Origin: the human T2T-CHM13v2.0 reference genome, Homo sapiens
Direction: 5' to 3' (one strand)
Assembly (NCBI RefSeq): GCF_009914755.1
Contig: NC_060945.1
DNA length: 64,000 bases
Positions 26,763 to 30,555 of the stretch are shown piece by piece (positions within the stretch are counted from its first letter, which is position 1; every line of letters begins with the position of its first letter). The notes below the pieces were generated by a model. The model was not told the DNA's origin and ran no database searches. It was given only the letters and a program-made list of their open reading frames with translations. Both the position numbers and the translations under genes were made by a program.

Positions 26763-27759
26763 ACGTCTCCCACTTTAAATGAAAAACTAGAAATGATTAA
26801 GCTTAGTGAGGAAGGCATGTTGAAATCCCAGACAGGCCGAAAGCTGGGCCTCTTATGCCAAACAACCAGGTTATGAATGGAAAGGAAGTTCTTGAAGTAA
26901 ATGAAAAATGTTACTCCAGTGAACACACAAAGGATAAGAAAGCGAAACAGCCTTGTTGCTGATATGGAGAAAGTTTGAGTGGTCTGGATAGAAGGTGCAA
27001 CTAACCACAACATTGCTTTAAGCCAAAGTCCACTCCAGAGTAAGGCCCTAATGTGCTTCACTTCTATGAGGCTGAAATAGATGAGGAAGATATAGGAGAA
27101 TTTGAAGCTAGTAGAGGTTGGTTCATGGGATTTAAGTAAAGAAGTCTCCGTAACATAAAAGTGCAAGGTAAAACAGCAAGTGCTGATGTAGATGCTGTAC
27201 CTTGTTCTCCAGAATATGTAAGAGAATAGATGAAGGTAGCTACACTAAGGAACAGATTTTCAATGTAGACAAAATAGCCTTCTATTGAAAGACCATGCCA
27301 TCTAGGACACCCATAGCTAGAGAAAAGAAGTCAATGCCTGGCTTCAAAGCTTTAAAGGACAGGCCGACTCTTTTGTTAGGGCCTAATGCAGCTGATGACT
27401 GTAAGTTGAAGCCAGTGCTCATTTACCATTCCAAAACTCTAGGATCCTTAAGAATGATGCTAAATCTACTCGGCCTGTGCTCTATACGGGAACAACAAAG
27501 CCTAGATAACAGCACATCTTTATAGCATGGTTTACTGAATCTTTTAAGCCTTCTCTTGAGACCTGCTGCCCAGAAAAAGGTTCCTCTCAAAATATTACTG
27601 CTTATGAACAATGCACCCGGTCACCCAAGAGCTCTGATAGAGATGTGCAAGGAGATGAATGCTGTTTTCATGCCCATTAACACCGCATCCATTCTGCAAG
27701 CCATGGGTCAAGGAGTAATTTTGACTTTCAAGTGTTACTACTTAAGAAACACATTTTGT

Positions 27760-28040
27760 GGCTGAGCATGGTGGCTCACGCCTGTAATCCCAGCACTTTG
27801 GGAGGCAGAGGTGGGAGGATCACAAGGTCAGGAGATCGAGACCAGCCTGGCTAACACGGTGAAACCCCGTCTCTACTAAAAATACAAAAAAATTACTCGG
27901 GAGGCTGAGGCAGGAGAATGGCATGAACCTGGGAGGCGGAGCTTGCAGTGAGCCGAGATAGTGCCACTGCACTCTAGCCTGGGCGACAGAGCGAGACTCC
28001 ATCTCAAAAAAAAAAAAAATAATAATAATAAAATAAATAA
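27760..28040 (+). mobile_element. AluY with a ~35 bp internal deletion, inside Tigger1
   Basis: Y-diagnostics gaatggcatgaacc and gagcttgcag; TSD aaa(c/t)acattttgt; the empty site is present in the second Tigger1 copy. Confidence 0.93.
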
Positions 28041-28816
28041 ATACATTTTGTAAGGCTATAGCTGCCACAGATGGTGATTCCTCTGATGGATCTGGGCAAA
28101 GTAAATTGAAAACCTTCTGAGAGGCATTCACCGTTCTCGATGTCATTAAGAACATTTGTGACTCATGGGAGGAGGTCACAACATCAACAAAGTTTGGAAG
28201 AAGTTGATTCCAACCCTCATGGATGCCTTTAAGGGGTTCCATCCTTTATTGAAGGAAGTCACTGCAGATGTGGTGAAAACAGCAAGAGAACTAGAATTAG
28301 AAGTGGAGCCTGAAGATGTGACTGAATTGCTGCAATCTCATGATCAAACTTGAATGGATAAGGAGTTGCTTCTTATGGATGAGAAGCAGAAAAGTGGTTA
28401 CTTGAGATGCAGTCTACTAGTAGTGAAGATGCTGTGAACATTGTTGAGATGACAACAAAGGGTTTAGAATATTAATATTACATAAGCTTAGTTGCTAAAG
28501 CAGCAGCAGGGTTTGAGAGGACTGACTCCAATTTTGAAAGAAGTTATACCATGGTGAAAGGCTATCAAACAGCATCACATGCTACAGAGAAAACTTTCGT
28601 GAAAGGAAGAGTCCATTGATGTGGCAAACTTTAGTGTTGTCTTATTTTCAGAAATTGCCACAGCCACCCCAGCCTTTAGCAACTATCAGCCTGATTGATC
28701 AGCAGCCACCAACATCCAGGCAAGACCCCACCACTAAAAAGATGATGACTCACTGAAGGCTCAGATGATTGTTAGCATTTTTTTTTTTTTTTTTTTTTTA
28801 GCAATAAACTATTTTT

Positions 28817-29119
28817 ACTTTTTTCTTTGTTGTTTTTTTGAGATGGAGTCTCTGTTGCCCAGGCTGGAGTGTGCAGTGGTGCAATCTCGGCTCACTGCAA
28901 CCTCTGCCTCCTGGGTTCAAGCGATTGTCCTGCCTCAGCCTCCTGAGTAGCTGGGATTATAGGTGTGCACCACCACGCCCAGCTAATTTTTATATTTTTA
29001 GTAGAGACGAGGTTTCGCCATGTTGGCCAGGCTGGTCTCGAACTTCTGACCTCAAGTGGTCCACTCACCTCAGCTTCCCAAAGTGCTGGGATTACAGGTG
29101 TGAGCCACCACGCCTGGCC
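28817..29119 (-). mobile_element. AluS SINE inside Tigger1
   Basis: TSD gcaataaa(c/g)tattttt at 28801-28816 and 29120-29135. Confidence 0.93.
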
Positions 29120-30555
29120 GCAATAAAGTATTTTTAAAATTAAGGTATGTACATTGTTTTTAGACATAATGCTATTGCACACAATAGACTACAGTAGGGT
29201 GTAAACATAAATTTTATATGCCTTGGGAAATGAAAAAATTCATGTGACTTGCTTTAATTTAATATTTGCTTTATTATGGTACCTGAAAAATGAACCCACA
29301 GTATTTCTGAGATATACCTATATTCTAATATGTGTCTTTTATCACATTTGCAAATATGTCTCCCATCCTGTATCTGCTCTTAATCCTCTTAATCAGGGCT
29401 TTTGCAGATAAAATATTTTTAATTTTGATGAAGTGCATATTATCAGTTCTTACGAATCATGTTTGGTGTTAAGTTTAGCCGTAGATCACAAAGATTCCTT
29501 CTATTCTGTCTAAGTTTTATAGTTTTACATTTTATATTTGAGTGTGCAATTTATTTTCAGTTAATTTTTCTGTAAGGTGTGAGACTTAGATTGAAGTTCA
29601 TGCTTTTGCCTATGGATATTTGATTGCTCTTACATCATTTTTTGGAAAGTCTATCCTCTCACCAGTTGCCTTTGCAATTCTCCAAATCATTTGAGAAACT
29701 CATTTCTCCAAAATCATTTGGGCACCTTTCTGTGGTTCTCTATAGTATTTTCCATACTGGATTTCTTATATCGTTCCATTGATTGCCATGTCCATCCTTC
29801 TGACAATGTCACATAATCTTGGCTACTGTGGCTGTAAGTCTTGAAATTGGGTAGAGATTTCTCTCATTTGCTCTTGTAAAAAATGTTTCAGTTATTCTAG
29901 TTTCTTTGCTTTTCCATATTTATTTTAGAACCAACTTCTCTATATATACACACATTTTTGATGAAATTTTAATGAAAGTTGCATTAAATTTGTATAATAA
30001 TTTAGGGAAAATTGATATCTCTACTATGCTGAATGTTCTTATCCATGAACTTAGTATGTCTCCATTTATTTAGATATATTTGTTTTAATTCTTCAGTGTT
30101 TTGTAGTTGTCAGCATAAAATTTCTACATGTTTTGGTGGATTTACACCTAAGTGTGTGTTTATTTTCAGGGATTTTATTATATTTTTAATTTGAGTATCC
30201 ATGTGTTCATTGATAATATACAAAAATAAAATGAATTTTTGTGTGTTTATCTTTAGTTTTATGACATTGCTGAACTCATTGATTCTAGAAGCTTTTGGTA
30301 GGTTCCTTGGGATTTTTTTAGATAATCAAGTCACCTGCAGATTTGGACAATTTAGTTTATCTTTTCTGATCTCTAGGTCTTTTATTTATTTCCTTATTAC
30401 ACAGGTTAGAATTTCCAGCACTACGTGGAATATAAGTGAGCAACCTTGTCCTGTTCCCGATGTTAGGGGAAAATCATTCACTATTTTGCTGTGAAGTATG
30501 ATGCTAGCTGTAGATTTGTGTAGATGATATTTATCAAGTTAAATACCTTTTTCTC

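What the first reader, a model, noticed from the sequence alone, without database searches (positions are those of the whole stretch)
27569..29320. Identity gradient between the two Tigger1 arms indicates recent gene conversion and a possible flip-flop (recurrent) inversion
Seen by manual alignment: 28039-28660 versus the reverse complement of 52414-53035 has 3 mismatches in ~620 bp (28190, 28220, 28551), including a perfect 330 bp run (28221-28550). On the other side of the AluY (27569-27759) there are about 7 substitutions plus an 8-bp indel in ~190 bp. Identity falls further after 28660, and the last ~45 bp look like independently decayed copies. Only the left arm carries the AluY and AluS, and the right arm has clean empty sites. 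Established: Tigger1 has been inactive for tens of millions of years, so independent copies should differ by well over 10%. Inference: the arms have been repeatedly homogenised, the AluY bounds the latest tract, and the perfect run is long enough for non-allelic homologous recombination (NAHR). The segment may still toggle orientation.
Basis: partly seen in the sequence, partly recalled or inferred. Interest (0 to 1): 0.72.

Follow-up and report, generated by a model that had tools for sequence, protein, structure and literature searches.

The report
Ancient transposon-flanked inversion inside PCBP3 intron
Two mirror-image copies of an extinct DNA transposon in an intron of the human PCBP3 gene mark the ends of a 23-kb stretch that has been flipped; repeated gene conversion has likely kept part of the two copies almost identical, but the catalogues checked show no person with the other orientation.

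Summary
In detail: 3 mismatches in 28039-28660, a perfect 330-bp run, and two Alus found only in the left arm. Unrelated copies differ by 16% over the core.

New result: the inversion has already happened. The older repeat into which the left element inserted is split, and its halves lie at 26035 (+) and 52091 (-). They are colinear in 22 of 24 other copies. T-A skew also flips between the arms. The reference therefore shows the derived orientation.

The arms share derived changes in three layers: core 0.5% divergent, 27569-27746 3.5%, tail 16%. The tail still shares rare indels, so the arms are not independent insertions. Shared changes are GC-biased, 43 to 23. Repeated ectopic conversion is the likely cause, with Alu insertions shrinking the zone.

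Present-day toggling is unsupported. No inversion is listed here in 41 or 65 human genomes, or for gibbon versus human. Great-ape tables could not be read.

Verdict: a new member of a known kind (a transposon-flanked inversion with concerted arms), of modest interest.

The parts
25380..26035 (+). 5' half of an older interspersed repeat (hAT/Charlie1-like; name recalled) that was the insertion site of the left element; ends in the TA target (26034-26035)
   Evidence: colinear with the 52091 half in 22 of 24 other copies
26036..29320 (+). Left arm: near-full-length Tigger1-type (pogo-like) DNA transposon with both termini, interrupted by three Alus; its 3' tail now joins a different flank from its 5' end
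   Evidence: Pfam CENP-B_N (E 8e-8) and DDE_1 (E 3e-11) fragments; nhmmer profile positions 18-2423; termini
26467..26762 (-). Old Alu (AluS-like; name recalled) in the unpaired 5' half
   Evidence: non-CpG divergence 15-16 in 225
27569..27746 (+). Older shared layer, 5' piece: 17 shared-derived and 6 private substitutions, 8-bp deletion in the right arm; pairs with 53205-53036
27747..28038 (+). AluY-like insertion (name recalled) with its 13-bp target duplication, left arm only; 5' border of the youngest tract
   Evidence: non-CpG 3-5 in 204, CpG sites 12 in 42
28039..28660 (+). Core: youngest homogenised tract, 53 shared-derived substitutions, 2 shared insertions, 3 private differences; pairs with 53035-52414
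28661..28688 (+). Older shared layer, 3' piece (3 shared-derived, 2 private, a 3-bp insertion in the right arm)
28689..29320 (+). Tail: 16% divergent from the right tail but sharing rare derived indels; holds an AluS-like insertion (about 28801-29119, left only)
29321..30560 (-). Old L1-like repeat (name recalled) cut at a TA (29321-29322): the target site of the second transposon end
   Evidence: alignment with 13 other copies places the TA inside the repeat; extent
29323..52091 (.). Inverted segment, 22.8 kb between the arms, intronic in PCBP3 (no annotated exon inside, per the hub's table)
   Evidence: flank exchange; T-A skew -0.12 inside against +0.16 and +0.13 outside
51123..52091 (-). 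3' half of the split hAT-like repeat, starting right after the TA at 52093-52092 (an Alu lies inside it at about 51255-51555)
52094..53205 (-). Right arm: 5'-truncated Tigger1-type copy (profile positions 1282-2426) with an intact 3' terminus and no Alus
53206..53400 (-). Old repeat (L2-like; name recalled) cut off mid-element at the start of the right arm: a deletion junction
   Evidence: other copies continue past this point and no continuation was found in the window

Best explanation
The two arms are the breakpoints of an inversion of a 23-kb piece of PCBP3 intron, with the reference in the derived orientation; the second arm is likely a transposase-made daughter of the first, and repeated ectopic gene conversion has likely kept part of the pair alike ever since. 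Steps: (1) shown: a Tigger1-type element inserted at a TA in an older repeat; (2) shown: a second 3' end sits at a TA in an L1-like repeat about 23 kb away and shares rare derived changes with the first; inferred: a local hop or hybrid-element insertion while the transposase was active, before about 37 My ago; (3) shown: the 3' flanks are exchanged, so an odd number of inversions has occurred; inferred: one early event, made at the same time as step 2 or by NAHR between the then near-identical copies; (4) shown: the second copy has lost its 5' half and its outer flank; (5) inferred: non-crossover conversion went on in a shrinking zone - the tail dropped out first (about when the AluS-like copy came in), then 27569-27746 (cut off by the AluY-like copy, roughly 7-38 My ago), and 28039-28660 was last homogenised roughly 0.5-7 My ago; (6) inferred: the orientation is fixed or nearly fixed in living humans. 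My odds by step: inversion happened 0.95; repeated conversion 0.85; daughter copy rather than independent insertion 0.65; not a common human polymorphism 0.9.
For: Flank exchange: 22 of 24 other copies of the host repeat are colinear across 26035|52091, while the left inner flank hit 1 of 24 and the right outer flank 0 of 24. T-A skew is positive in 21 of 25 outside 1-kb blocks and in 4 of 13 inside blocks (p=4e-5), and cumulative skew turns at 31502 and 50189. Shared-derived rate is 8.6-10% in the paired zone against a null mean of 0.8-0.9%, with 0 of 351 and 0 of 325 pairs reaching it. Layers: 3 of 614 against 6 of 170, p=0.004; non-CpG only p=0.006. The AluY-like copy in the same arm is more diverged than the core (3 of 202 against 1 of 601, p=0.05). 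Shared changes W>S 43, S>W 23: p=0.0015 against other copies (0 of 27 reach that fraction), p=0.02 against the unpaired 5' half, p=0.003 against tail-private changes. Tail indels shared. No inversion listed at the locus in human or gibbon catalogues.
Against: No orthologous primate sequence was available, so concerted evolution was not tested by a tree. The layer contrast rests on 9 substitutions. With variable columns removed the GC bias weakens (34:19; p=0.035 against other copies, 0.28 against the 5' half, 0.11 against the tail). The excess of shared substitutions in 28689-29321 is modest (4 of 221 strict; 3 of 325 null pairs reach it) and could reflect a source sub-lineage or early conversion. 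Shared changes reach within 2 bp of the truncation edge (27570), which also fits a one-off copy. The skew signal fades in 44-52 kb of unmasked sequence (5 blocks near zero or slightly positive), and 25 of 256 shifted windows (starts 24.3-30.3 kb) score as high, so it does not place the ends precisely. Alu strand asymmetry favours an old inversion only weakly (likelihood ratio 5.3 over fully reversed, 1.7 over neutral).
Confidence: 0.7

Rival explanations
1. One template-switch event about 10-35 My ago made the inversion, copied 27569-28688 onto the other side and deleted the second copy's 5' half; at most one later conversion polished the core.
For: Shared-derived changes run to the very edge of the right arm (27570, 27580, 27586); that edge is a non-homologous junction in the middle of another repeat; both ends of the old zone show similar divergence (8 of 198); the unpaired 5' half shows no GC bias.
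Against: A single copy would not enrich G+C among changes that predate it (43:23); the tails share rare indels outside the copied zone; Alus inside the segment lean to the present orientation (weak).
Confidence: 0.15
2. Two independent Tigger1 insertions, homogenised early and repeatedly, then inverted by NAHR; fixed since.
For: Both 3' ends are precise ends at their own TA targets; the tails differ by 14-16%, near the lower range of unrelated pairs; young copies would have been alike enough to convert.
Against: Shared 2-bp deletion (0 of 27 others), shared 1-bp insertion (1 of 27) and a shared dinucleotide change in the tail need extra early tracts.
Confidence: 0.2
3. One reading: the segment still toggles by NAHR in the 622-bp core and both orientations recur in humans or great apes.
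For: 99.5% identity over 622 bp with a 330-bp perfect run; one past inversion is shown; inversions with near-identical inverted repeats are usually recurrent (PMC6748972, passages).
Against: None of the 9 chr21 rows of the 41-genome table lies here; no matching id in the 65-genome table, where a control id was found; no gibbon-human inversion here; the repeat is short for a 23-kb segment, and frequency rises with the repeat-to-inversion length ratio; in a Y palindrome, conversion is frequent and inversion rare (PMC3723533, abstract).
Confidence: 0.12
4. Assembly or polishing artefact: one arm's core was overwritten by the other's reads, or the segment is misoriented in CHM13.
For: None found.
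Against: The arms differ by two Alus, indels and 3 core sites; PMC10150506 reports no misorientation in T2T-CHM13 across 41 samples; the older layers and the skew flip cannot come from polishing. Reads were not inspected.
Confidence: 0.02

Closest known systems
Transposon-generated inversions with exchanged flanks (Galileo, Drosophila buzzatii 2z3; PMC2775673, abstract and passages)
   Same: Two copies of a cut-and-paste transposon in opposite orientation at the breakpoints, with flanks exchanged; the same two candidate mechanisms (ectopic recombination or hybrid element insertion).
   Different: Here the element is pogo-like with an uninformative TA duplication, the event is ancient and apparently fixed, one copy is truncated, and later conversion has erased the crossover point.
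Non-allelic gene conversion among transposable elements (review PMC6598467, passages: Alu, LTR, ISX)
   Same: Reduced divergence between nearby copies, in a mosaic of tracts.
   Different: The passages seen concern Alus and LTRs, with elevated rates under 10 kb; this is a DNA-transposon pair about 24 kb apart with a 622-bp near-perfect tract and borders set by Alu insertions.
Palindrome arm conversion (Y palindrome P6; PMC3723533, abstract)
   Same: Inverted arms, GC-biased conversion, crossover (inversion) rare compared with conversion.
   Different: Autosomal; arms of about 1.1 kb rather than large palindrome arms; identity 99.5% only in the core.
Recurrent human NAHR inversions flanked by inverted repeats (PMC6748972, passages)
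   Same: Near-identical inverted repeats bound an invertible segment.
   Different: No polymorphism recorded at this locus in the tables read.

Membership tests
Tigger1 (pogo-like Tc1/mariner) | CENP-B-type DNA-binding domain and DDE transposase | tested here: met
   Pfam CENP-B_N and DDE_1 in broken frames; 5 of 10 fragments were left-arm or right-arm hits to these two families or none: CENP-B_N 1, DDE_1 3 (one below cut-off)
Tigger1 (pogo-like Tc1/mariner) | About 2.4 kb with terminal inverted repeats and TA target duplication | tested here: met
   profile length about 2430; TA at 26034-35, 29321-22 and 52093-92
Tigger1 (pogo-like Tc1/mariner) | Best match to the Tigger1 library consensus rather than another Tigger subfamily | not testable with these tools
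Transposon-flanked inversion | Two copies in opposite orientation at the breakpoints | tested here: met
Transposon-flanked inversion | Exchanged flanks or target duplications | tested here: met
   host repeat halves colinear in 22 of 24 copies; the second target's outer half is deleted
Transposon-flanked inversion | Non-inverted arrangement seen in an outgroup | not testable with these tools
   no primate genomes held; gibbon list shows no difference from human
Hybrid element insertion (aberrant transposition) | Flanking copies identical at origin rather than chimeric | tested here: inconclusive
   tails share rare derived changes, which a local hop followed by NAHR or early conversion also gives
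Concerted evolution by ectopic gene conversion | Paralogues more alike than their age allows, in tracts | tested here: met
Concerted evolution by ectopic gene conversion | GC-biased fixation | tested here: inconclusive
   significant with all columns (p=0.0015-0.02), weaker with strict columns (p=0.035-0.28)
Concerted evolution by ectopic gene conversion | Arms cluster by species; variants shared between arms in populations | not testable with these tools
   no orthologues or population haplotypes available
Recurrent (toggling) inversion polymorphism | Both orientations segregate, on several haplotype backgrounds | tested here: not met
   not listed in the 41-genome or 65-genome tables; literature check only, rare alleles not excluded
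Recurrent (toggling) inversion polymorphism | Orientation differs or segregates in great apes | not testable with these tools
   ape tables not readable

The most novel reading that the evidence does not exclude
The Tigger1 transposase itself made this inversion in an early primate by hybrid-element insertion, leaving two identical mirror copies that have stayed in GC-biased concerted evolution for over 37 million years, with each Alu insertion freezing a dated layer - a fossil record of aberrant DNA transposition in the human genome and a natural clock for how insertions end gene conversion.
Probability: 0.2. Interest if true: 0.62.

Novelty: new member of a known kind. Interest (0 to 1): 0.38.

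Why it matters
It turns a guess about a possible inversion into a shown, polarised one, using a single genome: a split host repeat and a skew flip. It is a clean small case of two dead transposons about 24 kb apart evolving together long after their family died, with Alu insertions marking where conversion stopped. That makes tract length, rate and GC bias of ectopic conversion testable with ape and pangenome assemblies. The same split-flank test could be run genome-wide to find ancient fixed inversions and to ask whether DNA transposases rearranged primate genomes directly. No effect on PCBP3 is shown: the segment holds no annotated exon.

Tried and rejected
Independent insertion as the default: weakened by shared tail indels.

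Search for the missing 5' half of the right copy, and for the outer continuation of the L1-like and L2-like flanks, in the window: none found (one search's output was partly cut). A weak profile hit at 59836-60219 overlaps an Alu and was set aside. Sequence beyond the window was not searched.

Dating the inversion by A>G/T>C asymmetry in 8 inside and 11 outside Alus: 14:9 inside and 18:11 outside, neither significant alone. Skew magnitude cannot date it either.

One search was a faulty run (Alu bait on the wrong strand) and was replaced.

Pfam gave no family for the 4 hAT-like fragments tried, so that name is recalled.

A clock of 1e-9 per site per year gives 70-82 My for the tail, which is too old; dates are rough and the older ones are overestimates.

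Macaque within-species SV table (PMC6749001, file 12 part 356): no inversion of about 24 kb in PCBP3, of little weight. Its ape-specific table (file 13, cut at 4 million characters) had no PCBP3 row, uninformative. The macaque Strand-seq supplement could not be searched.

Literature searches: PCBP3 with inversion terms gave 0, 0 and 9 papers; 3 of the 9 were opened and are unrelated. Tigger1 with gene conversion and inversion gave 3 listings, not opened, none evidently relevant.

Full report
Observation. A self-comparison of the window gives the arms as its strongest repeat. The left element is longer than the finding: it spans 26036-29320 with both termini, while the right copy (53205-52094) is only the 3' half. 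Pfam finds CENP-B_N and DDE_1 fragments, so it is a pogo/Tigger-type transposon.

Baseline. A genome search returned 40 matches and 30 loci. I dropped the two arms and one of a near-identical X/Y pair, leaving 27 copies for an alignment. They were picked as the best matches to the core, which makes them a conservative null. Unrelated pairs differ by 16% (core) to 24% (tail) and share non-consensus bases at about 1-2% of sites.

Three layers. Core: 53 shared-derived and 3 private changes in 614 sites, plus two shared insertions. 27569-27746: 17 shared and 6 private in 170. No null pair reaches either shared rate (0 of 351, 0 of 325). Core against 5' piece gives p=0.004. 28661-28688 belongs to the older layer. 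The tail 28689-29321 differs at 47 of 287 sites, yet it shares a 2-bp deletion (0 of 27 others), a 1-bp insertion (1 of 27) and a dinucleotide change (motif in 1 of 27). Its excess of shared substitutions is modest (3 of 325 null pairs reach it). The AluY-like copy has 5 non-CpG differences in 204, two of them at the edge of an internal deletion, and 12 of 42 CpG sites changed. That matches the 1.8% per branch of the piece it cut off and exceeds the core (p=0.05). With an assumed clock of 1e-9 per site per year the core dates to 2.4 My (0.5-7) and the 5' piece to 18 My (7-38); the same clock over-ages the tail.

GC bias. Shared changes in 27569-28688 run 43 W>S to 23 S>W. The left arm's W>S fraction there (0.61) is reached by 0 of 27 other copies, and the shared changes differ from the unpaired 5' half (p=0.02) and from tail-private changes (p=0.003). 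With only well-conserved columns the counts are 34:19 and p is 0.035, 0.28 and 0.11. This favours long repeated conversion over one copying event, but not decisively.

The inversion has happened. The sequence left of the left arm and the sequence inside the right arm are two halves of one older repeat. In 22 of 24 other copies they are colinear, and the base-level alignment joins them at the TA. The left arm's 3' end instead sits at a TA inside an L1-like repeat (13 copies aligned). The outer half of that repeat, the 5' half of the second copy, and the rest of the repeat at 53206 were not found in the window, so that junction carries a deletion. Independently, T-A skew is +0.16 left, -0.12 inside and +0.13 right; 21 of 25 outside blocks and 4 of 13 inside blocks are positive (p=4e-5). 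The signal is weak in 44-52 kb and does not place the ends precisely. That such skew reflects transcription of the host gene is established knowledge, recalled.

Mechanism. Two precise 3' ends at TA sites mean a transposase placed the second end, which puts it before about 37 My ago (PMC8277862, passage). Shared tail changes suggest a daughter of the first copy. Hybrid element insertion and ectopic recombination give nearly the same product (PMC2775673, passages), and later conversion has erased the difference here. I favour an early inversion followed by conversion in a zone that shrank as Alus inserted. Alu strand asymmetry leans the same way only weakly. The main rival is one template-switch event about 20 My ago, because shared changes reach the truncation edge.

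Toggling. PMC10150506 Table S1 (41 genomes, T2T coordinates; supplement rows and passages seen) has 9 chr21 rows, none at 44.046-44.073 Mb, and reports no CHM13 misorientation. PMC12350169 Table 37 (65 genomes, many the same people; searched by id prefix, one of two control prefixes found, file cut when stored) has no id here. PMC9712629 (gibbon Strand-seq, 7 kb to 17.7 Mb; table rows and passages) lists chr21 inversions only at 14.2, 34.6 and 40.0 Mb of GRCh38, far from this locus at about 45.7 Mb (recalled offset). Absence from lists is weaker than genotyping, and alleles under 1-2% are not excluded. The great-ape tables, which bear directly on recurrence and on novelty, could not be read.

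Novelty. Searches found no description of this locus; 3 of 9 papers naming PCBP3 and inversion were opened and are unrelated. It may be listed in the unread supplements. Each ingredient is known: transposon-flanked inversions, conversion among transposons (PMC6598467, passages), GC-biased arm conversion with rare inversion (PMC3723533, abstract), and recurrent inversions between inverted repeats (PMC6748972, passages). PMC12058530 was seen in passages only; PMC5753468 passages added nothing. Verdict: a real feature and a new member of a known kind; interest 0.38.

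Noticed in passing
window 5944-6337 against 59859-60256; 14277-14591 against 59837-60156: A 400-bp inverted match at 88% and a 321-bp direct match at 88%, longer than an Alu in the first case and overlapping masked repeats; probably related old repeat copies.
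   Followed up: no
window 26036, 29320 and 52094: The outermost base of all three surviving termini carries the same change relative to most other copies (T at the 5' end, A at both 3' ends), which may be a variant of the source element.
   Followed up: partly
window 1-64000: T-A skew of about +0.15 in the PCBP3 introns is strong, in masked and unmasked sequence alike, which would fit long-standing germline transcription on the + strand.
   Followed up: partly
macaque rheMac8 chr3:1102975-1103335 (PMC6749001, file 12): A 360-bp inversion call just upstream of macaque PCBP3, heterozygous in all five animals; possibly a mapping artefact of a local inverted repeat; not mapped to the window.
   Followed up: no
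window 27892-27893: The AluY-like copy has an internal deletion of about 35 bp after its middle A-rich linker.
   Followed up: no
L024 and L025: Two of the fetched transposon copies, on contigs C24 and C23, give near-identical hits, as expected for a region shared by X and Y; one was dropped from the null set.
   Followed up: partly
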